The position numbers were made by a program, and so were the translations under genes. A stretch of 64,000 nt of DNA. Source: an uncultured Acidobacteriota bacterium (GTDB lineage: Bacteria; Acidobacteriota; Vicinamibacteria; Fen-336). The notes beneath the pieces were generated by a model. It saw only the letters and a program-made list of their open reading frames with translations. It ran no database searches and had not been told where the DNA came from. The stretch covers positions 446,614 through 510,613 of the forward strand of contig CAVOYO010000012.1 in NCBI GenBank assembly GCA_963700695.1, given 5' to 3'. Below are positions 23,853 through 64,000 of the stretch, one piece after another; the stretch's first letter is position 1, and the number at the start of each line of letters is the position of its first letter.

Positions 23853-24410
23853 ATGAAGGACCTTGTGACAGTTGTGCTCGTCGGCGTATCGCTGGTGGCC
23901 GCGTCAGGCGGCGCCGGGGAGAAGGAGAAGGCCGCCCGAGATCGGCTCTCCGAGGAGAACGCGAACGCCGCCGGCACGTTCACCGTGCGCACGCCGCAGG
24001 ACTGGGTGTTCGAGACGCGCGCGGGCGAGCCGGAGGTCACGGAGGCCCGAGGGGGCGCGTTGGTCCTGCGCGTCGTGCGCCGTGAGGGCGAGCTGGGTCT
24101 CGACAGCTGGCACGTTCAATGCATGCTTGAGCGCCTGGCCGGACCCATGGAGACACGCCCGCAGGTCGAGTACGAATACGACTTCCACCAGGGCTGGATC
24201 GCCGACCGGCAGGCGATGGACTCCGCGTTCGTGGTGCACTACGACGAGCCGATCGAGGGCCACAAGGACTGGCGCCAGAGGAACCTGACGGTGATCGGCG
24301 GGGGTGAGTCGCTGTGCGTGATCGCGATGGCCCCCCGCCGGGTGTGGAAGAAGTCGAAGGAGGACCGGGCGCTCCTCGAGGCCGTGATGCAGAGCGTCCG
24401 TTTCGAGTGA
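23853..24410 (+). CDS. Secreted protein of unknown function (first gene of a 3-gene operon)
   Basis: Signal-like N-terminus MKDLVTVVLVGVSLVAASGGAG. I recognise no family motif. The stop overlaps the next ATG. Confidence 0.55.
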   Translation: MKDLVTVVLVGVSLVAASGGAGEKEKAARDRLSEENANAAGTFTVRTPQDWVFETRAGEPEVTEARGGALVLRVVRREGELGLDSWHVQCMLERLAGPMETRPQVEYEYDFHQGWIADRQAMDSAFVVHYDEPIEGHKDWRQRNLTVIGGGESLCVIAMAPRRVWKKSKEDRALLEAVMQSVRFE

Positions 24411-25369
24411 TGGCGCTGACCGTATCAGAGACGCTGTCCGTCGGGCGCGCCGCCAAGCGGCGTCAGATCTGGTCCGTCGGCGGCGGCAAGGGTGGCATCG
24501 GCAAGTCCCTGATCGCGGCGTCGCTCGGTTGGCAGCTCGCCCGCATGGGGCAGCGCGTCGTCCTCGTCGACGCCGACCTCGGCGGGGCCAACCTACACAC
24601 GTGCCTCGGCCTGCCCAACCCACCGCGCACGCTCGCCGACTTCATCCAGCGGCGTCTGGACACGATCGAGGAGGCCCTCACCGAGACCGGCGCCCCGGGG
24701 CTCCGGCTCCTGAGCGGCGCCGGGGACCTGCTCACCGCCGCGAACATCAAGCACATGCAGAAGGTCCGGATTCTGAACAAGATCCGGAGCCTGGACGTGG
24801 ACGTGGTGCTCATCGACATCGGGGCCGGAACCTCCTTCAACAGCCTCGATTTCTTCCTTCTCTCGGACGTCGCGATTCTGGCGGTGGTGCCGGAGCCGAG
24901 CTCGATCGAGAACGGGTACCGGTTCATCAAGAGCGCGCTGTACCGGCGGCTCCGGGCGGCGGCCCCGCACGCCGGCGTCCGAAACCTCGTCGACACCGCC
25001 CTCGACCCCAAGAACGAGCTGGGCCTGCGCACTCCCGTGGATCTCGTGGCCCGGGTGGAGCAGGAGGACCCGGCGGCGGCGGCCGCCCTGCGGCGTGAGA
25101 TGAGCTCCTTCCACCCCCGGTTCGTGGTCAACGAGGTGCGTGACGACCGGGACGCGGCCATCGGTCACCAGCTGGTGGCGGCCTGCGGGCGCCACCTCGG
25201 CCTGCGCGCCAGCTACGCCGGGTACGTGCACTTCGAGGACGCGGTGTGGCGGGCGGTCCGCCGGCGCCGTCTGTTCATGGCCGACGCGCCCACCTCGCGG
25301 GCGGCGGAGGAGATCCGGCAGCTCACGCGAGGTCTGCTCAAGGGAGAGAATCTGGGGTCCGGCTACTGA
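24410..25369 (+). CDS. MinD/ParA/FlhG-family P-loop ATPase
   Basis: Deviant Walker A with signature lysine: GGGKGGIGKS. Also VVLVDADLGGAN, VVLIDIGAG. The ATG overlaps the upstream TGA (GTGATGG). Confidence 0.8.
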   Translation: MALTVSETLSVGRAAKRRQIWSVGGGKGGIGKSLIAASLGWQLARMGQRVVLVDADLGGANLHTCLGLPNPPRTLADFIQRRLDTIEEALTETGAPGLRLLSGAGDLLTAANIKHMQKVRILNKIRSLDVDVVLIDIGAGTSFNSLDFFLLSDVAILAVVPEPSSIENGYRFIKSALYRRLRAAAPHAGVRNLVDTALDPKNELGLRTPVDLVARVEQEDPAAAAALRREMSSFHPRFVVNEVRDDRDAAIGHQLVAACGRHLGLRASYAGYVHFEDAVWRAVRRRRLFMADAPTSRAAEEIRQLTRGLLKGENLGSGY

Positions 25370-25917
25370 TGGAGATGGGGGAGGACCTCTACGACGTGCT
25401 GGGTCTCGAGCCCGGGGCGTCGCGCGAGCAGGTCGAGCGGGCGTACCGCTTCTCGCTCGAGATGTACGGAGAGGACGCGCTCGCGACGTACTCGCTGCTC
25501 GAGCCGGCGGAGCTCGAGAGCATGCGCTCGCGCATCCGCGACGCCTACCAGGTGCTGATCGACGACGAGCAGCGCCGGGCCTACGACGAAGGCCATGGGT
25601 TCGCGCCGCCCGAGTCCCCGGTGGTGCCCTTCCCGACGTCGTCGGAGAGCGGGGCCGAAGAGGTGGAGCTGCCCGAGGTCCTGACCGGCCCCGATCTGAA
25701 GCGCATCCGTGAGGCCCGCGGGGTGAGCCTGCGCCACATGGCGAACGTGACCAAGATCGGGACGCGCTTCCTCGAGTACATCGAGGAGGACCGGCTCGCC
25801 TTCCTGCCCGCACCGGTCTACCTCCGGGGATTCCTTCAGGAGTACGCTCGGATGGTGAACCTCGACGCGCGCCGGGTGGCCGAGGCCTACATGAAGCGTC
25901 TACCCGCCCGCCGCTGA
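25369..25917 (+). CDS. J-domain-like plus RodZ-type HTH protein
   Basis: N-terminus DLYDVLGLEPGASREQVERAYR. The usual HPD tripeptide is not evident. C-terminal HTH: LKRIREARGVSLRHMANVTKIGTRFLEYIEEDR. The ATG overlaps the upstream TGA. Confidence 0.6.
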   Translation: MEMGEDLYDVLGLEPGASREQVERAYRFSLEMYGEDALATYSLLEPAELESMRSRIRDAYQVLIDDEQRRAYDEGHGFAPPESPVVPFPTSSESGAEEVELPEVLTGPDLKRIREARGVSLRHMANVTKIGTRFLEYIEEDRLAFLPAPVYLRGFLQEYARMVNLDARRVAEAYMKRLPARR

Positions 25918-42939: not shown

Positions 42940-43782
42940 GGGCCCTCACCTTCCTGGCCAGCCGCTTCGTTGCGGGCGAGGAGCCGCGGGATGCGGTGCG
43001 CGTCGGCGAGAGTCTCCAGGCGAAGAGCATCAAGGCGACGTTCGACAAGCTGGGCGAGGACGTGCACGACCGGGAGGCGGCCACGCGGGCGGCGGACGCC
43101 GCGAAGGAGCTCCTGCGGCTGATCCCGCGCAGGGTCGAGCGCAACATCTCGATCAAGATGTCGTCGATGGGGCAGGAGATCTCGCGCGATGTCTGTCTCG
43201 AGAACACGGCCTCGATCCTCGACGTGGCGAAGGAGGTGGGGGGCTTCGTGCGCCTCGACATGGAGGGCTCGAAGCTCACCCAGGACACGATCGAGGTCTT
43301 CCAGCGAGCTGAGGAAGCGTTACGACAACGTGGGGATCGTGCTCCAGGCCTACCTCCACCGGACCCTCGACGACGTCCGGGAGGCCGTCGATCGAGGAGA
43401 CAGGGTGCGGCTGTGCAAGGGCGCCTACCGGGAGCCGCCGGAGGTGGCGCTGCAGGACATGTCCGAGATCCGCCGCACCTTCAAGGAGGCGGCCCACCTC
43501 CTGCTGGACCGGGGCCGCTACCCGGCCATCGCCACCCACGACGAGGAGCTCATCCGGGACACGATCGAGTACGCGCGCGATCGGGGGATCGAGCCCTCGC
43601 GCTTCGAGTTCCAGATGCTCTACGGGTTGCGACCGAAGCGGTGGAACCAGCTCGTGGCCGACGGCTACAACGTGCGCATCTACGTGCCCTACGGGACCCA
43701 CTGGGTCCCGTACTTCTACCGCCGCCTGCGCGAGCGCAAGGAGAACGTCCTCTTCGTCCTGAAGAGCCTCCTCGGAGGCTGA
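42936..43782 (+). CDS. Proline dehydrogenase (monofunctional) (1 apparent frameshift)
   Basis: ATG at 42936 overlaps the queF stop. ...[21 protein letters not shown] then switches near 43305 to [20 protein letters not shown]...RLCKGAY...FEFQMLYG. Confidence 0.8.
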
Positions 43783-43816
43783 GCGCCGGTTGCCGCTATA
43801 CTCCCACCTTGTGCGC

Positions 43817-44872
43817 ATGAGGGCCGTTGTCTACCGGGGGAAAGACGACCTGCGGTTGGAGGAGATCCCCATCCCCGAGCCCGGAGCGGGGGAGATGCTG
43901 GTCCGCGTCGACGCGTGCGGGATCTGTCCGACCGACCTGAAGAAGATCGAGAAGGGGCTCCTGCCCGGGCCGCGAGTCTTCGGACACGAGATCGCGGGCA
44001 CGGTGGCGGCTCTCGGTCCCGGCACCGGGGGCTTTGGCGAGGGCCAGCGGGTGGTGGTCCACCACCACATCCCCTGCCGGGCCTGCTTCTACTGCCAGCG
44101 GGAGGCCTTTGCCCAGTGCCCGCGTTACAAGGAGAACGGCACCACGGCGGGCTTCGAGGCGGCGGGGGGCGGGTACGCCGAGTACGTGAAGGCTCTCGAC
44201 TGGATCGTAGAGGAAGGCACGATCCCGATTCCCGATGGGGTGCACCCCGAAGAGGCGGTCTTCGTGGAGCCGGTGAACACGTGCCTCAAGGCGGTGGTCA
44301 AGGCCCGGGTCGAGAAGGGCGAGACCGCGCTCGTCGTGGGGCAGGGACCGATCGGGCTGCTCATCATGCAGCTCCTTCGCTGGTCCGGGGCGAGCGTGAT
44401 CGTCTCCGATCCGCTGGCCGAGCGCCGCTCGCTGGGCCGGTCGCTGGGTGCGACCGTGGCCCTCGACGCTGGGGCCGACGTGCCGGCGGAGGTGCGGGCG
44501 CTGACGCACGGGCGCGGCGCCGACTGCGCCTTCGTGGCCGCGGTGGGGTCGGCCCCTCTCGCCCAGGCCATCGCGGCGACGCGGGCGGCCGGCCGTATCC
44601 TTTCCTTCGCCGCCACCTCGCCGGGAGAGACGGCGGAGGTCGACCTGGGGGTCATGACCGTGTCCGAGAAGGACATCCTGACGTCCTACAGCGCGTCCGT
44701 CGACCTGCAGGACCAGGCCGCCCAGCTGGTCTTCAAGCGGGAGATCCGGGTGCGGGAGCTCGTGAGCCACCGGCTCCCGTTCGAGCGGGCGCTCGAGGCC
44801 TTCGACCTCGCCCGTCGGCCCGGGCCGGGGACACTCAAGGTCGTGGTCGAGACAGACGCGGAAGCGAGGTGA
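43817..44872 (+). CDS. Zn-dependent medium-chain dehydrogenase/reductase
   Basis: GICPTD, GHEIAGTV and a Rossmann segment VVGQGPIGL are present. Confidence 0.8.
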   Translation: MRAVVYRGKDDLRLEEIPIPEPGAGEMLVRVDACGICPTDLKKIEKGLLPGPRVFGHEIAGTVAALGPGTGGFGEGQRVVVHHHIPCRACFYCQREAFAQCPRYKENGTTAGFEAAGGGYAEYVKALDWIVEEGTIPIPDGVHPEEAVFVEPVNTCLKAVVKARVEKGETALVVGQGPIGLLIMQLLRWSGASVIVSDPLAERRSLGRSLGATVALDAGADVPAEVRALTHGRGADCAFVAAVGSAPLAQAIAATRAAGRILSFAATSPGETAEVDLGVMTVSEKDILTSYSASVDLQDQAAQLVFKREIRVRELVSHRLPFERALEAFDLARRPGPGTLKVVVETDAEAR

Positions 44873-44876
44873 GCCC

Positions 44877-45932
44877 GTGGCCACACAGATGAGGGCGGCC
44901 GTCCTTCACGGGCGCGAGGACGTGCGCATCGAGCACGTGGACGTGCCGCGCCTCGGGCCCGGTGACGTGCTGCTCCGCACGCGGGTCGCGCTCACGTGCG
45001 GGACCGACGTCAAGGTCTTCCGCCGCGGCTACCACGCCCGGATGATCCAGCCGCCCTCCGTCTTCGGTCACGAGGTGGCGGGGGTCGTCGAGGACGTGGG
45101 CTCGGGGTTGGACGGCGTCGAGCCCGGGAGCCCGGTCGTGGTGGCCAACTCCGCCCCCTGCGGCGAGTGTCACTACTGCGGCCACGACAGCCCCAGCCTG
45201 TGCGACGACCTCCAGTTCTGGAACGGGGCCTACGCGGAGTTCGCCCGCATCCCCGCCCGCGTCGTCCGGCACAATCTCATTCGCCTGGAGGAGGGAGTGG
45301 GGTTCCGCGAGGCGGCCATGGTCGAGCCGCTCGCTTGCGTCGTCAGGGGAGTCGAGGAGAGCTGGGTTGGCCGCGGGCAGTCGGTCGCGGTGATCGGGGC
45401 CGGGCCGATCGGTCTGATGTTCGTTGCGCTGGCCCGGCTGAGGGGCGCTCACGTGACGGTGGTGGGACGCAACCGCGGGCGGCTCGAGAAGGCCCTCGAG
45501 CTGGGGGCCGAAGCCGTGATCGAGGCGGCGCCGGACGCCGATCTCGGACAGCAGCTGAGGCGACGCTGCCGCCACGGTCCCGGGCCCGACGTGGTCATCG
45601 AGGCGGTGGGCCTGCCCGAGACCTGCGAAGCGGCGATCCGGGCCGTCCGCAAGGGAGGGGTGGTGAACCTCTTCGCGGGTTGCCCGGCCGACACGCGGGT
45701 CGGCATCGACTCGCAGCGCCTCCACTATCAGGAGCTGACGATCAAGTCGACGTTCCACCACACGCCGGAGAGCGTGCGGAAGGCGTTTCGCCTCATTGCC
45801 GATGGGCACGTCGACCCGAACACCTTCATCACGGGCCAGGAGCCGCTCGACCGGCTGCCGGGCGTGCTCGACCGGATGGCCCGCGGCGCGGACGGGCTGA
45901 AGACCGCGATCCTCACCTGGGGCCACGAGTGA
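44877..45932 (+). CDS. Zn-dependent medium-chain dehydrogenase/reductase (paralogue)
   Basis: GTD..., GHEVAGVV, the structural-Zn segment CGECHYC, and VIGAGPIGL are present. Confidence 0.8.
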   Translation: MATQMRAAVLHGREDVRIEHVDVPRLGPGDVLLRTRVALTCGTDVKVFRRGYHARMIQPPSVFGHEVAGVVEDVGSGLDGVEPGSPVVVANSAPCGECHYCGHDSPSLCDDLQFWNGAYAEFARIPARVVRHNLIRLEEGVGFREAAMVEPLACVVRGVEESWVGRGQSVAVIGAGPIGLMFVALARLRGAHVTVVGRNRGRLEKALELGAEAVIEAAPDADLGQQLRRRCRHGPGPDVVIEAVGLPETCEAAIRAVRKGGVVNLFAGCPADTRVGIDSQRLHYQELTIKSTFHHTPESVRKAFRLIADGHVDPNTFITGQEPLDRLPGVLDRMARGADGLKTAILTWGHE

Positions 45933-54584: not shown

Positions 54585-55664
54585 CTAGCCGGTGGCCGCG
54601 CTTCCGGCGTTCGCCTCGGTCAGCGTTTCGGCCAGGACCACGCGGTTGCGGCCACGCTGCTTGGCCGCGTAGAGCGCGCGGTCGGCGAGATCGACGAGGT
54701 CCTCCGGGCGCATGCCGGCCCTGGGCACCGTGGAGGCCGATCCGAGGCTGACGGTGAGCACGGGGGAGACGTCTGAGGAGCTGTGCTCGATGTCGAGCGC
54801 CTCGACGCGGGCGCGCACCCGCTCGGCCAGGAGCCGGGCACCTTCCGAGTCGGTGTCGACCAGCAGACCCACGAACTCCTCGCCGCCGTAGCGGGCGGCG
54901 AGGTCGGCGGGGCGGTTCAGCGTGTCCTCGACCGCCTGGGCGACCCGCACGAGGCAATCGTCGCCGGCCTGGTGGCCATAGGTGTCGTTGAAGCGCTTGA
55001 AGTGGTCGATGTCGCAGAAGAGGAGGGAGAGGCTGGCGTCGTCTCGGGCTGCCCGCTTCCACTCCTGGCGCAGCACGTCGTCGAAGCGGCGACGGTTGGC
55101 GATCCCGGTGAGCGTGTCGAGGGCGGAGAGCCGCTCGAGAAGGCGGTTCTTGTCCTCGAGCTGGCGGCGGATCTCGACCAGCTCGCGGTTGGCCCGCTCC
55201 ACCTGGTCGGCGTAGGCCTGCAGCTTGATGTTGTCGCCGGCGAGGGCCTCGAGGTCGTGGCGGGAGCGCTCGGAGAAGATCCGGAGCAGCACCATCAACG
55301 CGGCCGGGTTGTGCGCGATGTGCTGCCAGAAGGCCGACTCGGGGATCTCCAGCACCTCCGTTTCGTCGAGAGACCGGAGGGTCGCGGCGCGCTCGCGCGA
55401 CTCGATCAACGCCATCTCCCCGAAGCAGTCGCCGGGGCTGCCCACCGCCACCTGCTTGCCGCTGCGTGAAACCACGAGGTGGCCGGAGAGGACGACGAAC
55501 ATCGCGTGGCCCTCCTCCCCCTCACGGCAGAGGGCTTCCCCCGCGGGGAGGACGATGCGTCGGCACAGGCCCAGCAGGCCCCGCAGGTCGGCTTCCGACA
55601 GGGGCGCGAGCAAGTCCGTGTCCCGGACCATGCCGACGAGGGCGTCCTCGCTCGCCTTCGTCAT
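54585..55664 (-). CDS. cNMP-binding domain / GGDEF diguanylate cyclase
   Basis: GDCFGEMALI...RAATL (cNMP-binding), a coiled linker, then DHFKRFNDTYGHQAGD and the GGEEF active site. Confidence 0.85.
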   Translation of the reverse strand: MTKASEDALVGMVRDTDLLAPLSEADLRGLLGLCRRIVLPAGEALCREGEEGHAMFVVLSGHLVVSRSGKQVAVGSPGDCFGEMALIESRERAATLRSLDETEVLEIPESAFWQHIAHNPAALMVLLRIFSERSRHDLEALAGDNIKLQAYADQVERANRELVEIRRQLEDKNRLLERLSALDTLTGIANRRRFDDVLRQEWKRAARDDASLSLLFCDIDHFKRFNDTYGHQAGDDCLVRVAQAVEDTLNRPADLAARYGGEEFVGLLVDTDSEGARLLAERVRARVEALDIEHSSSDVSPVLTVSLGSASTVPRAGMRPEDLVDLADRALYAAKQRGRNRVVLAETLTEANAGSAATG

Positions 55665-55839
55665 CGGAAGAGGGCAAGTCCCCCGCGGACCGCGTGGCTC
55701 GGCGTTTCTTCGAGACACACCATCCGCTCGATGATAGCCGTTTTTGAGCCCCCAGAGGGCCTCCGACGGGGGCTGTCGGAGGCCGGCCAGAACCAAGCTC
55801 TCCGAGTCGACGGCTTCGGGAGCCCGGCGAGCGGCGAGG

Positions 55840-56109
55840 CTACGGCCGGGGGTCGGGTCCCCCGTCACGCTTCGTGATCTGCACCCGGAAGACCTCGGGG
55901 CCCTCCTCGAGCGACGTCCACTCGAACTGACCTGGACGCTGCTCCTCGAAATGGCGGAGGAGACCCCGCGGCACGTGGTCGTTGACGACGACGACGCTGT
56001 TGCCGGCCTCGAGGGCGTCGAAGGTGCTCAGCACGCAGGCCTTGCGGTCGGTGCAGGCGCCGAGGGTGCGAATGTCCACGGTGTGCGAGGCCACTGCGGG
56101 TGTGCTCAT
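55840..56109 (-). CDS. DUF2249-domain protein
   Basis: 89 aa. ...VLSTFDALEAGNSVVVVNDHVPRGLLRHFEEQRPGQFEW matches my memory of DUF2249. Confidence 0.6.
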   Translation of the reverse strand: MSTPAVASHTVDIRTLGACTDRKACVLSTFDALEAGNSVVVVNDHVPRGLLRHFEEQRPGQFEWTSLEEGPEVFRVQITKRDGGPDPRP

Positions 56110-56324
56110 TCGGGTCTCCTTCGGAATGCGGTCGAGAGTGCGCCTCCCGCCGCACCCTCAGTGTGGCAGATGCGACCGGTCGGGACCATGACCGCCGTCA
56201 TGTGCCTCGGACGGCAGCGGCCGTCCGCCGGGAGGCGCCCCGGCGGTGCCCCTGTGGCGGGGCGGCGTCACAGGTGAGCGGTTGCTCTTCTGCCCGCTCT
56301 GTGGTCATCTCTGTATCACGGCAC

Positions 56325-56423
56325 GGAAGCGATTCGGGTCTGGTGACTCGCGCGGCCTTCAAAGCCGTCCGGCTCCGGGTTGATCCCCGGAGCGGTGGGT
56401 TCGATTCCCACCCGCTTCCGCCA
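56325..56423 (+). tRNA. selC: tRNA-Sec (anticodon TCA)
   Basis: 99 nt, GGAAGCGA...CCGCTTCC-G-CCA. It has an 8-nt acceptor arm (position 8 is A:C), a 6-bp D stem with a 4-nt loop (CGGGTC-TGGT-GACTCG), the anticodon loop CTTCAAA, an 8-bp variable arm (GCTCCGGG/CCCGGAGC) and the T arm GTGGG-TTCGATT-CCCAC. The ends resemble E. coli selC. Confidence 0.9.
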
Positions 56424-56456
56424 AACGTCCCTTGTGCCTCTAGCCACCTCTACCGG

Positions 56457-57525
56457 CTACCCGACACGGCGACTGTGCGCGTTCTGTGCGCTTTCGGCTT
56501 CAGGAAGTCCTCCGAGCATCCCGATACCCTGGCGCGTGTCCTCCACATCGATCACGTTGTATCGATCAAATGTGGACCGGGTCCGATGCCCGCTTACCTT
56601 CATCACCGTGGACTCTGCGACACCCGCCCGAACCCACGAACGTAGCCCGGAACGTCGCAAGTCATAGGGCACCAGGCCGGCCCGCCCGCCTCGAACCCGG
56701 CCAACCTGCACGCCGTTGCCCACGTCTTCCGGTAGTCCTTCACCGGGTAGCCAAGGCGACCACGGAACCGGCGATGGAAGATCAGATCGGAGCCGACGAC
56801 CCGCCGCTCCTGCCTGCGCTTGATGATGTCGAGGATCGGCCCAGCGAGAGCGATGGTCCTTCCGCGCTTGATCTTCGCGGTCTGCGGCGGGACCGTGATC
56901 GTCCCCGCGTCCACATCGACACAACTCCACGTCAACTGCCGGGTTTCGCTTGGACGCATCGCGGTCCAGAACGACCACGCCAAGAAGTCGGACACGTCAC
57001 GGTCGCGGACGTTCCCCAAGATTCGCATGAACTGCTCGTAGGAGACGAAGCCTTGCCTCGCGTTGACCACCGTCTCCACGGTCACATGCGGGATACGAGA
57101 TGCGGGGAGCTTGTGAGACACGACCGCGTGACGGTACGAGGCCCGGAGCAACTCCAACTCGCGGGCGATGGTCGCCGGTGCCCGTCCGTCGCTCTCCCGC
57201 CTCATCTTGAACCGCTCAAGATCCCGACCGTGACCGCCAGCGCCCGACGCCGCCCCAAGATGGCGAGGAGTGCCTTCGAGTGACTCCTGAGCTTGTTGAT
57301 GGAGCGGAGCCCGCGGCGAGCGTTCAGGTAGTCCAAGAGGATCGTCTCGATCTTGACCGAGTCTTGGTGGGGAAGGGGATCGTCCTCCCGAAGTCGACGC
57401 TTTAACTTCCGCTCGGCCTCGCGCTTCGTGCTCCCGCCAGGCTCTCGCCGCTCGTCCCCATCGACGTAGTAGCCGATCCACCAGCGCGACCCACGTCGAT
57501 ACACTCGCCCGAGCCCGTACATCAT
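56457..57525 (-). CDS. Tyrosine recombinase/integrase (2 apparent frameshifts)
   Basis: ORFs 57202..57525, 56603..57481 and 56457..56978 join near ~57230 and ~56690. ATIARELELLRASYRHAV, MRPSETRQLTW, then YDLRRSGLR and GHRTRSTFDRYNV (catalytic R, H-x-x-R, Y). Confidence 0.8.
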
Positions 57526-57821
57526 CCCTCGCTGTGGCCCGCCTGCATCCAGGCTTCAGCCCCGGCGAGATCTACCACAACCTTGCGGCCAAGGCGACTC
57601 ACCCACGGGAGGTCGTCCTGGTTGTGATAGATCCACTCCTTCGAGCAGCCGAGCCGCTTCGCGGCCTCGGTCACACTCACCTTGCGCCCAAGCTGGGCGG
57701 CGGGGGCTCTCTGATGCGCCATCGCGGCGGCACCCCTCCCGGTGATTTCGAGGCCCGCGGCCAGCAACTCCGCCGGCTCGGCTTGGCACAACGCGGCCTC
57801 GAGGGCCTGGCGGTCAATCAC
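57522..57821 (-). CDS. Excisionase/AlpA-type HTH DNA-binding protein
   Basis: VSVTEAAKRLGCSKEWIYHNQDDLPWV is the HTH. GTG start at 57821. The stop overlaps the integrase ATG. Confidence 0.6.
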   Translation of the reverse strand: MIDRQALEAALCQAEPAELLAAGLEITGRGAAAMAHQRAPAAQLGRKVSVTEAAKRLGCSKEWIYHNQDDLPWVSRLGRKVVVDLAGAEAWMQAGHSEG

Positions 57822-57997
57822 GGGGGCCTTCCCGTCGTCCTCGATGAAGAGCTCGACGGTGGCCGTGCAGGCCTTGGGGCAGGCGGGTCACGGGAGGGTT
57901 GCCCCAGGGCTTGCCCCTCCGCGCACAGGCCGACCCATTCGTGCATGGTGTCGAGATGAGCGTCCCGGACCGCCGCGAGGAGGTCGTCGCGGGTCAT
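57818..57997 (-). CDS. Small island ORF (59 aa), possibly the frameshifted N-terminal part of the HTH gene
   Basis: ATG at 57997 (MTRDDLLAAVRDAHLDTMHEW...). The stop overlaps the next GTG (GTGA). The downstream frame also stays open back to 57880, so a fusion is possible. Confidence 0.3.
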   Translation of the reverse strand: MTRDDLLAAVRDAHLDTMHEWVGLCAEGQALGQPSRDPPAPRPARPPSSSSSRTTGRPP

Positions 57998-58119
57998 GCG
58001 GGAACCCTCACGGGATTGGCCTCGGCTATCAGCCGGCCCAGCTCGCCGAAGATGGTGTCGCGGTCCATCGCAATCAGTGCCTTCTGGACCGTCGAGCTGA
58101 GGGTCTCAAGGTGACCCAC
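57994..58119 (-). CDS. Small island ORF (41 aa)
   Basis: GTG at 58119 (an alternative ATG lies at 58068). The stop overlaps the next ATG (ATGA). Confidence 0.25.
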   Translation of the reverse strand: MGHLETLSSTVQKALIAMDRDTIFGELGRLIAEANPVRVPA

Positions 58120-58203
58120 GGGGAATACCCGATCGGCCCTCTAAGAGGTCTGGGCCATCGCCCGCGGCTGGGATCCCTGGGTATCTGAGGGATTGTAGGA
58201 ATC

Positions 58204-59802
58204 CTAGGACCACACATGCGGGTTGACCTCGTAGTCCGGGGCGGCCTTCCGCCCAGGGCCCTCCGCTGCTTCCGGGGCATCACCCTGATGTAGTTGTGAT
58301 CCATGAGTACCTTCAGCGACTTCTTCATGGGTTCGACCTGTGGGAATCTCCCTCTCGTCGCCTGCCAGACCTCCTGGCTCGAGAAGCTGGGCTCCCCTTG
58401 GGCCTTGATCCAGATCAGGAGGTGACGAGCGCCCGCCACCACAGGGTCCGTTCCCATCAGGGCGAAGGCAGCCTTCGCATGGGCGAGGAAGTACTCGCCG
58501 ATTCTGATGGCGTCCTCCATCGTCTCGAGCGAAATGCGGACTCGCCACGGGGTTTTCCGTAATGCGTTAGCGGACATGTGGAGGAGGCCTGCAGTTCGGA
58601 CAACACGTCCGACGAGCTTCGCTGCCCAGTCGTAGATGGGCCATAGGGAGGCACCCGGCGCGAGCTTGGGCTCAAGCCACTCTGCGAACTCCATCAGACG
58701 TTCGTATGCACTTGAACGAAGCCTGAGTACGTGTGGGGTCTGGGTTTGCTGCCTTCATCGGCATCGGGTGAGAGGCTCAGCAGCACTCGCATCTGTTCTT
58801 CGTATTGCTGCCGCACTGTAGGGGGAACCGGCGACGGGTCGGGTCTTCCGACGCCCGAGATTGGACGCAGGAAGCGAGTAGGCGAAACGTGACAGAAGCC
58901 CTCGTCCGCGGAAGCCTGGCTCGTCCGCCAGTCCCTCAACCACCGCCGGCTGGGGCGAGATTCCCATGTGGCGGATCGCCGGCTCTGGTACGTAATCCGT
59001 TCCCCGTCCGATCCGACCGACGCGGATCGTGTCTCCCGAGTAGCCCTTGAGGTACACCTCGAAGTTCGACCTTCCGTCCGCGCTGTATCGCCCGCGCATG
59101 AGATCGAAGACTCCGCCTTCCGCCGAGATCAAGGCTATCCGGCCCCCTTGCTGGGGCAAGCGCCTGCGCCACGTACTCAGGGGTGGCATCGTCGGCGAGC
59201 AACTCTGGTGGTGCAGGGACGTCCATCGCGGCAACGCGCTCGGCGAGGTCATCTGCCTTCCTTAGGAACTGCTCTTTGCTCTTGGCCTTGGCGGCGGCTG
59301 TCTTGCGACGTAGGTCTTCAAGCTCTCTCTCCGCGATTCTTCGTCTCTCCACCCTCCTGGCAATCTCCGGCCCCATGCGGACCTTCTCCTCCTGCTCAAA
59401 CCTCTCAAGGGGTGCCTTAGCGTCGCGGACGACCTGGGTCTTTCGGCTTCCCGACTCGAGTGCGGTGAGAAGGTACTCATTGAGCGGCTCTTTCCAGTCC
59501 TGTCTGACGCGAACGACAACCCTGTTCGCGCAGCAGGTGGCGACGGCGGCGAGTGCCATCGTGGCTGGTAGGTCTACAGGAGTCTGCGTCGCCTCGACCT
59601 CCGTCTCTACGAACTCCCGCAGAGTGTCGGGAAGTGCGTCGCTCGGGAAGACGGGGACGTCGGGGTGCGACAGGGGGAGCGGAGGGTCCCAGTCCCTAAC
59701 CTGCTGCCTAGAATCCCTAGAATCCCTGGAATCTCCAGAACGCGGCCTCTTCAATCGACCCTTGCTGGTGCCCCTTCGGTGTCGCCGGTGACGTGGTGGC
59801 AT
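58204..59802 (-). CDS. DUF3987 (YfjI-like) protein of integrative elements (at least 4 apparent frameshifts)
   Basis: Five ORF pieces (58936..59802, 58755..59252, 58694..58939, 58074..58694, 58204..58548) read consecutively. FPSDALPDTLREFV...TQTPVDLPATMALAAVA..., ESGSRKT, IALISAEGGVFDLM, and the end GRKAAPDYEVNP. Confidence 0.65.
59709..59735. repeat. 9-bp tandem repeat inside the DUF3987 5' region
   Basis: tagaatccc / tagaatccc / tggaatctc encodes SRDSRDSR on the minus strand. Confidence 0.7.
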
Positions 59803-59832
59803 CCTACCCCCAGTCCGCCGGGTTGGTGTCGG

Positions 59833-60040
59833 TCACTTCCCGCCCTCGCCGAATCCCTCGAGGCTGGCAAGCAGTTCCGGCTTGACACCGAGAGCGGCAG
59901 CGAGACGCTCGATCTGGGAGGGATACGGGCGTAGTCGCTCGGCCTCGATCAGACCGACGGTCGTCGGGTGCATTCCCGCCCGTCGGGCCAACTCGGCTCG
60001 GCTCCAGCCCCGCTTCTCACGCGAGCTCCTTGAGATCCAT
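59833..60040 (-). CDS. XRE-family HTH regulator (1 apparent frameshift)
   Basis: AAGGAGG, 7 nt, then ATG at 60040 (MDLKEL). A 1-nt shift near 60020 leads into EKRGWSRAELARRAGMHPTTVGLIEAERLRPYPSQIERLAAALGV.... The 208-nt length is not a multiple of 3. Confidence 0.65.
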
Positions 60041-61850: not shown

Positions 61851-62038
61851 CGAGCGTCGGGCCTTACCGGTTGTCATGCCGCTGGGGCAGAGGCGGTGGT
61901 GGAGAGGGCGGCTGGACCCGCCCAGATCGTCTTCGGACCCCACGGCCCGCCCCATCGAAGTCTCCATGAGAGCCCCCCTTGTGAGAAACCTGGAACCGAC
62001 CTACGGGGGTGGAACAGAATAGGCGGCCAGGAGGCAGG

Positions 62039-62857
62039 GTGGCGACCCCGTCCCAGGCCCGAATCGAGCGGATAACCAGCGCTTTGCTCGCCTATGGAGA
62101 GCGGGTTGAGAGCTCGAAGTTTATTCCGCGCCCTGAATGAGGAAGCCTCGCGCTTTGTCTACGAGGATCCCTTTGCGTTTGCCCTGGGGGCTTCACTCGA
62201 CCGAGGGATCCGCGCCGAGGTTGCCTGGACCTTTCCATTCTGGATCAGGGAGAAGCTGGGTCACCTCGATCCGCAGCGCATCGCGAGCATGAGCCTCAAG
62301 GAGATCAGCAAGGTCCTCGAACTCTGCCAAAGCGGCCACGCTACCGACGCGATGCTCCCGGCACCGTCCAGGGCATTGCACGACTCGTCGTTGACGAAGC
62401 TGGTGGTGATGCGGCCAGTCTCTGGCGCGGCAAAAAGGCACGAGACGTGAAGCAGGCCTTCATGAAGGTCCGAGGAGTCGGGCCGGGCATTGCCTCGATG
62501 GTTGTGCTGCTGCTGGAGAAGGTGTTCGGAATCGGCTTCGGAGACCACGACCACACCACGATGGACGTGAAGGCTGATGTTCATGTTGTGCGGGTTCTTT
62601 CGCGCCTGGGCCTCCTCCGAGAGTCTTTGGCGGCACCCGACGCAGAACTCGACGCACACTGCAAAGAGGGTCGCGCTAGTGGATCCGAAGCGCTCGCCAT
62701 TCGGGTCACCCGACGGATGCACCCCCCGTTCCCCGCTCTCCTCGATACACCGCTGTGGATGATTGGCCGGTCCTGGTGCCGTGCTGATTCCCCGTCATGC
62801 AGCGAGTGCCCAGTCGGAGACGTATGCCCGCGGGAGGTCACCGGAGCCCGAGTCTGA
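62039..62857 (+). CDS. HhH-GPD superfamily DNA glycosylase-like protein with endonuclease III-type [4Fe-4S] cluster loop (2 apparent frameshifts)
   Basis: GTG at 62039 follows GGAGG. The pieces are frame 2, then frame 3 (62094 ORF), then frame 2 (62447 ORF). ...FALGASLDRGIRAEVAWTFPF..., LPKRPRY..., VRGVGPGIASMVVLLL, VDVHVVRVLSRLGL, and C-x6-C-x2-C-x5-C (CRADSPSCSECPVGDVC). Confidence 0.65.
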
Positions 62858-63497
62858 TGACGGAGTTGATCCTCATCCCTTGCAGTGGACGCAAGAAGCC
62901 GGCGGCAATCCGCGATGACTCCGGCTCCGTACTGACCGGGTCCCTCGATGGGGAGGTGTGGCAGCGCCTCTGTCAGGCCCGTGTGGAGCTCGCTGAGATC
63001 AGGGGTTGGAGCCGTCAAGCGATCTCGATGGAACCGGCGGCCAGTCGAGTGTGGACCTCCTGCCTGCCTTCAAGCGCTACGACGGGAACCTCTACAGGAA
63101 GGCGCAACTGAGTGAAACGCAGTTGACCGGGCACAGGAGGCTGCTCATCGTCAGTGCCTTGTATGGACTCCTGGATGCACGGGATCCGATTCGCGACTAC
63201 AACCTCCAGATGTCCGACAAGCTCCCGGGCAGGATCACCGTGAAGCGCTGGTGGCGTGAGCACAATCTTCGCGACGTCGTCGTCAATGCGGTTGAGCGGC
63301 TTGGCGCGGCGCAGGTGCATGACGTGCTGTCGGGCAACTACCGCGACGCCCTTCGCGGCCTGCCGCAGCATCTCCCGGCTGGTCGCCGGTGCCGGCCCTA
63401 TGACTTCCCTGGTCTCGGGACGGGGTCGGACTATCACAGGGGTGATGTTGTACGCGGGCTGCTGAATGGGTTTTTGATCCCGTGGAGAGACCAGTGA
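62857..63497 (+). CDS. DUF6884 / YaaA(DUF328)-like protein (1 apparent frameshift)
   Basis: The ATG overlaps the upstream TGA (TGATG). LIPCSGRKK, LLPAFKRYDGNLYRKA and RLLIVSALYGLLDARDPIRDYNLQM are present. The frame switches near 63000. The family call is from memory only. Confidence 0.5.
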
Positions 63498-63776
63498 ATA
63501 CGTCGAAGCCTTCAATCGATGTTGTGTGGAGCGGCTGAAAGAGGTTTCAGGGGGAGGAATTCAGAACCAAGAGGGGACTCCCTTTCACCTACGAGATCTC
63601 TGGGAACGTCTTCCATCCCAGCCGCACGGAATTCAACATCTCAAAGGGCGAGTTCCAGAAAGCCCTTGCTCTCGTGCCTTTCGATGGGCCGGGGGTGATT
63701 AACCGTACCGTTCGAGGACCGACCTGACGTCTGGGCGGTGCTGCACGACCCGCGTATTCGGATGCAGGACTGGTGA
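63494..63776 (+). CDS. Small unknown protein (in-frame TGA at 63536 or alternative GTG start at 63526; 1 frameshift near 63720)
   Basis: ...KRFQGEEFRTKRGLPFTYEISGNVFHPSRTEFNISKGEFQKALALVPFDGPGVINRTVRG, then DVWAVLHDPRIRMQDW*. Both ends overlap neighbouring genes by GTGA. Confidence 0.4.
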
Positions 63777-64000
63777 GTCCATTCGTGGCTTTGGAGCCCG
63801 GCACCGGCCTTGGCCCCTATCGAATCATCGAGCCTCTCGGGGGCGGGAGCGGAACCACTCTCCGTCCTGACGGCAGGAGCCACGGTGCCAGGGGCGAGCC
63901 CACGGTCTACAAGGCCGAGGACACGAGGCTGGGCCGCGACGTGGCCGTCAAGACTCTCCCCAGCGAGTGCCTCGACCATGAGGATTGCCGGCTCCGATTC
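63773..64000 (+). CDS. Ser/Thr protein kinase, N-terminal part (runs off window)
   Basis: GTG at 63773. LGPYRIIEPLGGG...VYKAEDTRLGRDVAVKTLP gives the Gly-loop and the VAxK lysine. About 14-16 extra residues sit inside the Gly-rich loop. Confidence 0.55.
   Translation, partial: MSPFVALEPGTGLGPYRIIEPLGGGSGTTLRPDGRSHGARGEPTVYKAEDTRLGRDVAVKTLPSECLDHEDCRLRF

What the first reader, a model, noticed from the sequence alone, without database searches (positions are those of the whole stretch)
62039..64000. Candidate undescribed system: overlapping-codon chain of HhH-GPD/[4Fe-4S] glycosylase-like, DUF6884/YaaA-like, small unknown and Ser/Thr kinase genes
Four consecutive plus-strand genes are linked by stop/start overlaps: C/D by TGATG at 62855-62859, D/E by GTGA at 63494-63497, and E/F by GTGA at 63773-63776. 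This argues for stoichiometric co-expression.

- **C** has the helix-hairpin-helix glycosylase core (VRGVGPGIASMVVLLL, VDVHVVRVLSRLGL). It also has a C-terminal C-x6-C-x2-C-x5-C cluster loop (CRADSPSCSECPVGDVC), as in endonuclease III/MutY.
- **D** has LIPCSGRKK and RLLIVSALYGLLDARDPIRDYNLQM, which I recognise as the DUF6884/YaaA-type signature.
- **E** (~90 aa) has no assignable function.
- **F** opens a kinase with an atypical Gly-loop.

A housekeeping nth or mutY would not be expected in a low-GC island behind an XRE switch, nor fused into an operon with these partners. DNA glycosylases have been shown to act as anti-phage effectors on modified phage DNA (for example Brig1). Cargo slots of integrative elements and satellites are also known defence hot spots. 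A base-excision-based defence or a DNA-modification/repair module is therefore plausible. I know of no described system with this gene set.

Caveat: the four genes carry four frameshifts and one in-frame stop in this assembly.
Basis: partly seen in the sequence, partly recalled or inferred. Interest (0 to 1): 0.75.

Follow-up and report, generated by a model that had tools for sequence, protein, structure and literature searches.

The report
Broken mobile glycosylase–YaaA-like gene pair
The end of this window holds a frameshift-riddled copy of a rare, horizontally spread two-gene cassette: an iron-sulfur endonuclease III/MutY-like DNA glycosylase plus a YaaA/DUF6884-type DNA-base-handling protein.

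Summary
The genes exist where stated, but the "four-gene chain" does not hold.

- **Conserved unit:** only C plus D. C is a divergent HhH/[4Fe-4S] glycosylase-like protein. D belongs to the YaaA/DUF328–DUF6884 superfamily and keeps the CxxxK and SALYG motifs. In 81 distinct C loci, 67 have a D-superfamily gene within 1 kb, usually directly downstream.
- **E is not a separate gene here.** A 95%-identical metagenome contig (L026) encodes one intact 306-aa D–E fusion. The reported D/E "GTGA overlap" is a frameshift inside that ORF.
- **E as a domain:** it has no Pfam or PDB match. Elsewhere it is fused to HNH, GIY-YIG, TIR and HEPN-like domains, kinases and DUF6884.
- **F (kinase) is not linked.** Synteny with L026 ends at the D–E stop codon, and no kinase recurs near C.
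- **State of the window copy:** five uncompensated frameshifts plus an in-frame stop. The whole tRNA-SeC island is similarly fragmented.
- **Context:** rare and patchy. Neighbours are RM, DruE, UvrD/GajB-like helicases, Mrr, recombinases and prophage ends.
- **Databases and literature:** C has no PADLOC match. Some DUF6884 partners match candidate PDC-M57A. No paper was found.

Most likely it is an accessory conflict cassette acting by base excision on non-canonical DNA. This function is inferred, not shown.

The parts
62039..62857 (+). Gene C (disrupted): divergent HhH / [4Fe-4S]-cluster-loop DNA glycosylase-like protein, about 272 aa when the frames are repaired. GTG start lies behind AGGAGG at 62028-62033. 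Frameshifts at about 62100-62135 and about 62318-62327.
   Evidence: Three-frame translation. tblastn of intact homologues switches frame twice. 42-61% identity to intact 244-271-aa proteins. Profile matches to MutY/EndoIII. Fold match. All family-invariant residues are present in the window copy: LDRG, GHLDP, PRY, GVGxGIASM, M-VK-DVH-RV and the four Cys.
62857..63777 (+). Gene D-E (disrupted): one ORF in the intact relative (306 aa). The N-terminal roughly 205 aa form a YaaA/DUF328-DUF6884 superfamily domain (CSGRK, VSALYG). The C-terminal roughly 90 aa (about 63500-63774) form the unassigned 'E' domain. Uncompensated indels at 63000, 63473 and 63726; compensated pairs at 62898/62909, 62934/62942 and 63527/63538; in-frame TGA at 63536-63538.
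   Evidence: Pfam PF03883 2.1e-12 and DUF6884 3.4e-4. P0170 is a 306-aa fusion. L026 is 95% identical over 1025 nt with single-base indels. E family and fusions.
62855..62859 (+). TGATG stop/start overlap between C and D.
   Evidence: Read directly. Identical in L026. Gene calls in L001 overlap by 4 nt; L023 has a 3-nt gap.
63773..64000 (+). F: N-terminus of a Hanks-type Ser/Thr kinase, cut by the window end. It is a neighbour, not part of the conserved cassette.
   Evidence: NCBIfam PknB-type 6.3e-6 and PADLOC PD-T4-6 kinase models about 4e-6, over residues 41-76 only. Not syntenic in L026. No kinase among recurrent neighbours.
56325..56423 (+). tRNA-SeC, the left border of the lower-GC island that carries the cassette.
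   Evidence: ARAGORN. GC drop.
56603..57481 (-). Tyrosine integrase fragment of the island.
   Evidence: PF00589 7.8e-10.
58074..59802 (-). DUF3987 (P4-type replication/helicase-like) gene broken into three ORFs.
   Evidence: Three adjacent ORFs match successive parts of PF13148: profile positions 1-140, 139-257 and 291-363.
59833..59991 (-). XRE-type HTH regulator.
   Evidence: HTH_31 1.7e-7 and HTH_3 7.6e-5.

Best explanation
Window 62039-63777 is an inactivated (or locally mis-assembled) copy of a rare, horizontally mobile two-gene cassette. It is carried as cargo of a small integrative element at tRNA-SeC.

**Gene 1 (C)** is a divergent endonuclease III/MutY-type helix-hairpin-helix DNA glycosylase with a [4Fe-4S] cluster loop.
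- It keeps the catalytic Asp, in the motif K-A-D-V-H.
- It has Gly where EndoIII has its lyase Lys.
- It is therefore expected to flip a base out of duplex DNA and cut the N-glycosidic bond, leaving an abasic site.

**Gene 2 (D)** belongs to the YaaA/DUF328-DUF6884 superfamily.
- Known members bind DNA (YaaA), chemically convert a base within DNA (DpdC: preQ0-DNA to ADG-DNA), or are enriched on abasic and ribonucleotide lesions (YfjM).
- D keeps the CxxxK and SAxxG motifs proposed as the active site.
- In this lineage D carries an extra C-terminal domain, E. Elsewhere E is attached to nucleases, TIR and HEPN-like domains and kinases, so it probably serves as a target-recognition or sensor module.

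**Proposed action (inferred).** The pair acts on non-canonical or modified bases in incoming DNA. C excises the base. D then recognises, converts or traps the flipped base or the resulting abasic site, possibly supplying the Lys/Cys chemistry that C lacks. The lesion then blocks replication of a phage or rival element. This would be a base-excision conflict or defence module.

**Shown:** the homology, the motifs, the pairing, the rarity and the mobile context.
**Inferred:** the substrate, the division of labour and the defence role.

The kinase F is an unrelated neighbour.
For: **Pairing**
- C homologues sit directly upstream of D homologues in L001-L004, L010, L023-25 and L026.
- In 81 distinct C loci, 67 have a D-superfamily gene within 1 kb, 52 of them immediately downstream on the same strand. 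Six of the 14 exceptions have too little flanking sequence to tell.
- Ten sampled partners all hit DUF6884 and/or YaaA in Pfam.
- No third gene recurs.
- A different HhH glycosylase family (AGOG, 2.5e-23) sits directly upstream of a distant D homologue in Methanoperedens. The glycosylase/YaaA-like association therefore arose more than once.

**C biochemistry**
- The profile aligns to EndoIII/MutY with the Asp and the four Cys in register.
- AF2 pLDDT is 90. The top Foldseek hit is EndoIII 1orn (E 2e-6, TM 0.58 normalised to the query and 0.70 to the target).

**D biochemistry**
- PF03883 scores above its threshold.
- The CxxxK and SAxxG motifs are invariant in the family and are the motifs Pfam's authors highlight (PMC11701544).
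- YfjM is enriched on abasic and ribo lesions (PMC10220248).
- DpdC acts on a base in DNA (PMC10164549).

**Accessory or conflict role**
- Only 17 C and 46 D relatives were found by the indexed search of 5.8 billion proteins.
- Only 11 of 185,579 species genomes carry a relative, with a patchy phylogenetic spread.
- Neighbours include type III and type I RM, DruE (1e-106), GajB-like UvrD, NERD-UvrD, Mrr, AbiGi, HipA, serine recombinases and prophage tail ends.
- DUF6884 partners in L021 and L022 match PADLOC candidate PDC-M57A (5e-45, 2e-36).
- E is fused to HNH, GIY-YIG, CAP12-TIR and HEPN-like domains.
- There is precedent for EndoIII-like domains sensing hypermodified phage DNA (END nucleases, PMC12191111).
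Against: - There is no functional data of any kind.
- The neighbourhood evidence is qualitative. Housekeeping genes (Hsp70, phosphoglucomutase) also occur nearby, and I ran no background-corrected enrichment test.
- C and D were not found in IMG/VR viral contigs. This says nothing for defence and fits equally with a repair gene of non-viral elements.
Catalytic competence is therefore not assured. It could be a sensor only, as in END nucleases.
- The window copy is broken, so it can have no function in this genome unless the indels are assembly errors.
- The adjacency count used an HMM iterated on the same loci, although it was checked with Pfam on 10 samples.
Confidence: 0.5

Rival explanations
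1. It is a DNA-repair or self-protection module of mobile elements. The glycosylase removes damaged or enemy-installed base adducts (oxidised, alkylated, deaminated or ADP-ribosylated bases) from the element's or host's own DNA. The YaaA/DUF6884 partner shields or processes the abasic intermediate. This is counter-defence or stress tolerance rather than attack on foreign DNA.
For: - HhH/FCL glycosylases and AGOG are classically repair enzymes.
- YaaA is a peroxide-stress protein by Pfam and NCBIfam naming.
- YfjM was recovered on abasic and ribo lesions in a repair screen.
- A NADAR domain gene follows a D homologue in L016. NADAR enzymes reverse ADP-ribosylation of DNA guanine (from my own knowledge, not tested here).
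- Some loci are at prophage or element ends next to recombinases.
- Some neighbours are housekeeping genes.
Against: - The pair is extremely rare and patchy, which is unlike repair functions of general value.
- It co-locates with RM, DruE, GajB-like and Mrr genes.
- D partners are fused to the E domain, which elsewhere accompanies nucleases and TIR effectors.
- A DUF6884 partner matches a PADLOC defence candidate.
Confidence: 0.25
2. It is a DNA-modification module related to Dpd. D, like DpdC, chemically converts a base already in DNA. C acts as a base-exchange (transglycosylase-like) or editing enzyme, marking self DNA for a linked restriction component.
For: - D hits PADLOC DpdC models (7.6e-5, 7.1e-4).
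- The C model also resembles the queuine-salvage HhH enzyme DUF2419 (Foldseek E 1.5e-4).
- Large DEAD/MZB and SNF2 helicases, reminiscent of DpdJ and DpdE, flank the pair in L001 and L004.
Against: - The DpdC similarity is weak compared with that to YaaA.
- No TGT/DpdA, DpdB or preQ0-synthesis genes are in the window region.
- The helicases are present in only a few loci, and no third gene is conserved.
- The census of 67 large neighbours does not list TGT among its 25 most frequent Pfam families.
Confidence: 0.1
3. Nothing functional is here. The region is decayed pseudogenes whose adjacency and overlaps are residue or chance, and the 'system' is an artefact of reading frameshifted sequence.
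For: - There are five frameshifts and one in-frame stop in 1.7 kb.
- The integrase and the DUF3987 gene of the same island are also fragmented, while long core genes elsewhere in the window are intact.
- One claimed overlap (D/E) is indeed a frameshift artefact.
Against: - This is true only for this copy.
- Intact homologues and the conserved C-D pairing exist in dozens of loci.
- All invariant residues are still present in the window copy.
- Codon differences to L026 are 18 synonymous against 17 non-synonymous, so the copy is not in free drift.
- Assembly error cannot be excluded as the cause of the indels.
Confidence: 0.15

Closest known systems
Endonuclease III (Nth) / MutY: HhH-GPD glycosylases with an iron-sulfur cluster loop
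   Same: Same fold: Foldseek top hits are 1orn, 4ypr and 2abk (TM 0.55-0.60 normalised to the query, up to about 0.73 normalised to the target). The HhH motif, the catalytic Asp in the D-x-H-x-x-R-V context, and the C-x6-C-x2-C-x5-C loop are all in register.
   Different: About 18% identity. Below the Pfam HhH-GPD gathering score, and far below the NCBIfam mutY score (12 bits; no Nth model matched). Gly replaces the EndoIII lyase Lys, and there is no MutY-type Glu by alignment. C has its own invariant LDRG, GHLDP, PRY and VK-DVH motifs. It is accessory and mobile, and always paired with a YaaA/DUF6884 gene.
TIGR03252 (uncharacterised HhH-GPD-type base-excision protein)
   Same: This is the best named sequence match for the N-terminal two thirds of C (4.9e-15; profile positions 8-141 of 189).
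   Different: The score is 55.6 against a cut-off of 136.5. The match does not extend over C's C-terminal part, which carries the Fe-S loop. I could not examine the genomic context of TIGR03252 members here.
YaaA (DUF328) / DUF6884 (YfjM) / DpdC superfamily
   Same: D passes the PF03883 threshold. It carries the CxxxK and SAxxG motifs, and it weakly hits DUF6884 and DpdC.
   Different: D is far below the YaaA equivalog cut-offs (44 against 339). It is about 205 aa and forms its own rare clade of 46 sequences. It has a glycosylase partner and variable C-terminal add-ons: E, DUF7662 and others.
Brig1 and END nucleases (defence by recognising or excising modified phage bases)
   Same: The proposed logic is the same: an enzyme or domain of the DNA-glycosylase world recognises non-canonical bases of invading DNA (PMC12191111).
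   Different: Per that paper, Brig1's predicted structure is not similar to the EndoIII/Ogg1-like domain of END nucleases. END nucleases use a catalytically dead EndoIII domain fused to a PLD nuclease. C keeps its Asp, has no nuclease domain, and works with a separate YaaA/DUF6884 protein. No phage phenotype is known for C-D.
PADLOC candidate PDC-M57 (component A)
   Same: The DUF6884-type partners of C in L021 and L022 match PDC-M57A at 5e-45 and 2e-36.
   Different: The window's D matches only at 0.0034. No C-family protein matches any PADLOC model. No PDC-M57B was found among neighbours. I found no publication on it.

Membership tests
HhH-GPD / FCL DNA glycosylase superfamily | Helix-hairpin-helix followed by a Gly/Pro-rich loop and a conserved catalytic Asp | tested here: met
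   GVGPGIASM ... KADVHVVRV. The Asp aligns with the EndoIII and MutY Asp (D138 / D144 by my recollection of the residue numbering) and is invariant in 15 of 15 family members.
HhH-GPD / FCL DNA glycosylase superfamily | Four-Cys [4Fe-4S] cluster loop, C-x6-C-x2-C-x5-C | tested here: met
   CRADSPSCSECPVGDVC in the window. It aligns with the EndoIII/MutY loop. Metal binding itself is not testable here.
HhH-GPD / FCL DNA glycosylase superfamily | Two-domain all-helical fold | tested here: met
   AF2 model of homologue P0154: pLDDT 90.1, pTM 0.86. There are 56 PDB matches at E<=1e-3, the top ones all EndoIII or MutY.
HhH-GPD / FCL DNA glycosylase superfamily | Pfam PF00730 gathering score | tested here: not met
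   No hit for the window's C. The best family member, P0167, scores 22.7 against 26.2.
Endonuclease III (bifunctional) | Lyase Lys in the HhH (E. coli K120) | tested here: not met
An invariant Lys two residues before the Asp (VK-DVH) exists, but its role is unknown.
MutY / Nth orthologue (housekeeping) | NCBIfam equivalog score | tested here: not met
   mutY 12 bits against a cut-off of 286.5. No Nth model was hit.
TIGR03252 | NCBIfam cut-off of 136.5 bits | tested here: not met
   55.6 bits.
YaaA / DUF328 (PF03883) | Pfam gathering score | tested here: met
   47.5 bits against 29.6, covering profile positions 72-172 of 236 only. P0170 gives 46.9.
YaaA (peroxide stress protein, equivalog) | NCBIfam equivalog cut-offs | tested here: not met
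   The best score is 44.3 bits against a cut-off of 339.
DUF6884 (PF21818) | CxxxK and LSAxxG motifs, and the Pfam score | tested here: inconclusive
   The motifs are present (CSGRK, VSALYG) and invariant in the D family. The score is 21.2, below the cut-off of 30. Other partners of C score up to 171 bits.
Dpd 7-deazaguanine system | DpdC together with DpdA (TGT-like) and DpdB | tested here: not met
   There are only weak DpdC hits (7.6e-5). No TGT or ParB-like gene is in window 56.4-64 kb. No third gene recurs near C, and the census of 67 large neighbours does not list TGT among its 25 most frequent families.
END nucleases | Inactivated EndoIII-like domain fused to a nuclease | tested here: not met
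   C retains the Asp and has no nuclease domain. The family definition is from PMC12191111.
Known anti-phage systems (PADLOC-DB v2.0.0) | Match of the components to system models | tested here: not met
   C: none at E<=1. D: weak DpdC and PDC-M57A only. E: none. DefenseFinder could not be run.
Hanks-type Ser/Thr kinase (F) | Gly-loop, VAIK Lys and catalytic loop | tested here: inconclusive
   Only 76 residues lie in the window. 'VAVK' is present. The Gly-loop region carries about 15 extra residues. The PknB-type match is 6.3e-6 over residues 42-76.

The most novel reading that the evidence does not exclude
C plus D(-E) is a previously undescribed two-component anti-phage or anti-plasmid system. 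An Fe-S HhH glycosylase excises modified or otherwise foreign bases. A DUF328/DUF6884 enzyme then traps, cleaves or chemically converts the resulting site. E is a new promiscuous target-sensing domain shared with HNH, GIY-YIG, TIR, HEPN-like and kinase effectors.
Probability: 0.35. Interest if true: 0.8.

Novelty: new variant of a known kind. Interest (0 to 1): 0.6.

Why it matters
- **A function for DUF328/DUF6884.** If the pair is a conflict system, it would give the large, poorly understood DUF328/DUF6884 superfamily (YaaA, YfjM, DpdC) a concrete job next to a glycosylase.
- **A second route to base-excision immunity.** It would add a second, structurally unrelated route beside Brig1.
- **An active counterpart to END nucleases.** It would link to the recent finding that EndoIII-like domains sense hypermodified phage DNA, here with the catalytic Asp retained.
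- **The E domain.** It has about 1,000 sequence clusters, no Pfam family and no PDB fold match. It is fused to classic effector domains, so it would be a useful new marker for conflict systems.
- **This genome.** The practical message is more modest: the copy is broken and sits in a decaying, or badly assembled, tRNA-SeC island.

Tried and rejected
- **Four-gene system.** Rejected. E is absent from all other C-D loci except L026. E's own loci are unrelated. F is not syntenic.
- **F related to the kinase-E fusions P0171 and P0268.** BLASTP shows no similarity.
- **Phage origin.** IMG/VR scans with the C and D profiles found no relatives.
- **Extending the window via its own protein P0001.** It is not on record, so F and the island's right end remain unseen.
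- **attR search.** No repeat of 12 nt or more of the tRNA-SeC region lies downstream in the window.
- **C-like gene next to distant D homologues (L011, L016).** No profile similarity. Only L019 has a glycosylase (AGOG), and it does not align to the C profile.
- **First genome scan with the broad D alignment.** It failed for lack of conserved stretches and was repeated with closer sequences.
- **Fold of E.** The model is confident, but there is no PDB match (best E 2.5). The PDB sequence hits are spurious MBP tags.
- **PDC-M57B among neighbours.** Not found, and no paper exists.
- **Promoter and terminator scan.** Nothing informative.
- **Third conserved gene.** None. UvrD/PDDEXK occurs in only 6 loci.
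Full report
**1. What is in the sequence**

The window is about 70% GC. GC drops to about 63% immediately after a tRNA-SeC gene (56325-56423) and stays low to the window end.

The low-GC stretch begins with these genes:
- a tyrosine integrase fragment (56603-57481, minus strand);
- a DUF3987 gene split into three ORFs that match successive parts of the Pfam profile (58074-59802, minus strand);
- an XRE regulator (59833-59991, minus strand).

No repeat of the tRNA end occurs downstream, so the island's right end is not in the window.

In 62039-64000 the three plus-strand frames carry pieces of four coding units.

**2. The frames, corrected from relatives**

A JGI metagenome contig, L026 (1545 nt), is 95% identical to window 62758-63778. 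It encodes the end of C and the same TGATG stop/start. It then encodes one uninterrupted 306-aa protein, P0170, that spans both D and E.

Relative to L026 the window has nine internal single-base indels:
- three uncompensated, at 63000, 63473 and 63726;
- three compensated pairs, at 62898/62909, 62934/62942 and 63527/63538;
- the last pair creates the in-frame TGA at 63536-63538.

The missing base at 63473 produces the apparent D stop and the 'GTGA' D/E overlap. That overlap is therefore a frameshift artefact.

C switches frame twice when compared with intact homologues, near 62100-62135 and 62318-62327.

The total is five frameshifts and one in-frame stop.

Some indels lie in short homopolymers and others do not. 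Codon differences to L026 are 18 synonymous against 17 non-synonymous. All family-invariant residues of C and D survive in the window copy.

Long core genes elsewhere in the window are intact, while every island gene is fragmented. I cannot tell real decay from a locally poor consensus without the reads.

**3. Gene C**

The repaired C (about 272 aa) has no Pfam family above threshold. Its best named sequence match is TIGR03252, at 55.6 bits against a cut-off of 136.5.

The indexed search of 5.8 billion proteins found only 17 relatives, of 244-471 aa.

A profile of 15 of them matches MutY and EndoIII chains at E of about 2e-5. The catalytic Asp and the four Cys are in register.

It places an invariant Gly opposite the lyase Lys120, and the Asp opposite D138.

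An AlphaFold2 model of homologue P0154 is confident (pLDDT 90.1). Its best PDB matches are EndoIII-DNA and MutY-DNA complexes. The queuine-salvage HhH enzyme DUF2419 matches more weakly.

C is thus a distinct, rare branch of the Fe-S HhH glycosylases. It has the core catalytic Asp but neither the EndoIII Lys nor, by alignment, the MutY Glu. Its own invariant motifs are LDRG, GHLDP, PRY and VK-DVH.

**4. Gene D**

D passes the YaaA Pfam threshold (PF03883, 47.5 bits). It hits DUF6884 and PADLOC DpdC weakly. It is far below the YaaA equivalog cut-offs.

Only 46 relatives were found by the indexed search. Eleven of 185,579 species genomes carry one, scattered over Chloroflexota, Planctomycetota, Methylomirabilis, Bacteroidota, Firmicutes and several archaea.

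The family keeps an invariant Cys and Lys (CxxxK) and an invariant SAL-G. These are the motifs that Pfam's authors propose as the DUF6884 active site. They also describe a model in which YfjM flips a nucleotide (PMC11701544).

YfjM was enriched on abasic and ribonucleotide lesions (PMC10220248). DpdC converts preQ0-DNA to ADG-DNA on its own (PMC10164549).

**5. Is the linkage conserved?**

- *C-D: yes.* C lies directly upstream of D in L001, L002/3, L004, L010, L023-25 and L026.
- A scan of JGI metagenomes with the C profile gave 127 relatives, of which 80 loci were kept.
- I used a D-superfamily HMM iterated on these loci and spot-checked it with Pfam; 10 of 10 sampled partners hit DUF6884 and/or YaaA.
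- With it, 67 of 81 distinct C loci have such a gene within 1 kb: 52 directly downstream on the same strand, 7 downstream on the opposite strand, and 7 upstream.
- Six of the 14 exceptions have too little flank to tell.
- The partners fall into three subtypes: about 213-aa YaaA-like (as here), about 163-aa DUF6884-like, and about 229 aa.
- Clustering all neighbours found no third recurrent gene.
- A distant D homologue in Methanoperedens has an AGOG glycosylase directly upstream. This is a second, independent pairing of a glycosylase with a YaaA-like gene.
- *E: no.* Among all C-D loci, E occurs only in L026.
- *F: no.* L026 has a membrane protein after the D-E stop, and nucleotide homology ends exactly there. 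No kinase recurs near C.

**6. The E domain**

As a free 93-aa protein, E is highly conserved (106 hits at 49-76% identity). It sits in unrelated, often housekeeping-like contexts.

An exhaustive profile search found 1022 representative clusters.

A confident model (pLDDT 89.8) has no PDB match.

Among 38 longer proteins that carry E, the partner domains were:
- DUF6884 or YaaA (4);
- HNH_2 (2);
- protein kinase (2);
- CAP12-type TIR, GIY-YIG, DUF7662, HicB and HTH;
- by eye, a HEPN-like domain (P0195).

D partners of C also carry DUF7662 in other loci.

This is the behaviour of a recognition or sensor module of conflict systems. Its ligand is unknown.

**7. Context**

Gene calls around the cassette include:
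- HipA, AbiGi, HNH, Mrr and Mrr_N;
- giant DEAD/MZB helicases, SNF2, NERD-UvrD and UvrD-PDDEXK;
- type III RM and a ScoMcrA_N-like gene;
- STAND NTPases and serine recombinases;
- in one lineage, the end of a prophage tail module.

A census of the 67 largest neighbours gave UvrD (6), DEAD (5), ResIII (4) and N6_N4 methylase (4). It also gave some housekeeping families.

PADLOC recognises DruE (1e-106), type III methylases and GajB-like helicases among these neighbours.

C and D were not found in IMG/VR.

**8. Known systems and literature**

- No C-family protein matches any PADLOC v2 model.
- The DUF6884 partners in L021 and L022 match candidate PDC-M57A strongly, but no B component was seen nearby.
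- Full-text searches for DUF6884, DUF328 with glycosylase, YaaA with glycosylase and phage, PF03883/PF21818 and PDC-M57 found no description of this pair.
- The nearest conceptual precedent is the END nuclease preprint. There, a catalytically dead EndoIII-like domain senses hypermodified phage DNA. That paper cites Brig1 as a glycosylase defence (PMC12191111).

**9. Interpretation**

The best-supported reading is a mobile two-gene cassette that works on DNA bases. C is the base-flipping glycosylase, or at least the sensor. D is a second base- or lesion-handling enzyme. E is a lineage-specific recognition add-on.

Rarity, patchiness, mobile and defence-type neighbourhoods, the PDC-M57A match and the fusion partners of E favour a conflict or defence role over general repair. 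This rests on association only.

The repair or counter-defence reading and a Dpd-like modification reading remain open.

In this genome the copy is non-functional unless the indels are assembly errors.

**10. Verdict**

- The cassette is a new variant within the known world of glycosylase-based DNA surveillance.
- Interest is moderate to high for the family and low for this particular copy.

Noticed in passing
window 63500-63774; families P0047-P0152, P0171-P0317: The 'E' domain is a widespread family (1022 clusters at 50% identity) with no Pfam family and no PDB fold match. It occurs free (93 aa) or fused to HNH, GIY-YIG, CAP12-TIR, HEPN-like and DUF6884/YaaA domains, DUF7662 and membrane-anchored protein kinases. 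It looks like an unnamed sensor or recognition domain.
   Followed up: partly
window 56325-59991: A small integrative element lies at tRNA-SeC, with an integrase, a DUF3987 replication-type gene and an XRE regulator. All are fragmented by frameshifts, while long core genes upstream are intact. This is either a decaying island or a locally poor consensus.
   Followed up: partly
L019 6267-7846 (Candidatus Methanoperedens): An AGOG-family N-glycosylase/DNA lyase gene sits immediately upstream of a distant YaaA-like D homologue. This is an independent glycosylase/YaaA-like pairing in an archaeon.
   Followed up: partly
L016 2008-3218 (Runella MAG): A NADAR-domain gene (8.4e-25) directly follows a D homologue. 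From my own knowledge, NADAR enzymes remove ADP-ribose from DNA guanine, which hints at a link to DNA-adduct reversal.
   Followed up: no
L022 9702-9917; L102 5595-5960: In L022 a 71-aa ScoMcrA_N-like gene (weak Pfam hit) lies just upstream of C. In L102 the C protein has an N-terminal extension sharing the 'G..YPPK' motif with it (pairwise E 6e-4). This may be a modified-DNA reader attached to the glycosylase.
   Followed up: partly
L004 553-6471: A 1972-aa DruE-like helicase (PADLOC DruE 1e-106) carries a C-terminal S24 peptidase (LexA-like) domain. It sits next to Mrr_N and two genes upstream of the C-D pair.
   Followed up: no
P0158 (L030), P0167: Some C-family proteins carry N-terminal extensions of about 200 aa (P0158) or about 125 aa (P0167) with no Pfam match.
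   Followed up: no
window 24308-25914, 43763-45929, 54588-56157: Pairs of same-strand, high-GC3 ORFs overlap by 100-300 nt. These may be further frameshifts in the core part of the window. I did not check them against homologues.
   Followed up: no
window 63840-63885: The kinase F has about 15 extra residues (SGTTLRPDGRSHGAR) inside the glycine-loop region, before a normal 'VYKAEDTRLGRDVAVK'. This could be an insertion or more sequence damage. The window ends before it can be judged.
   Followed up: no
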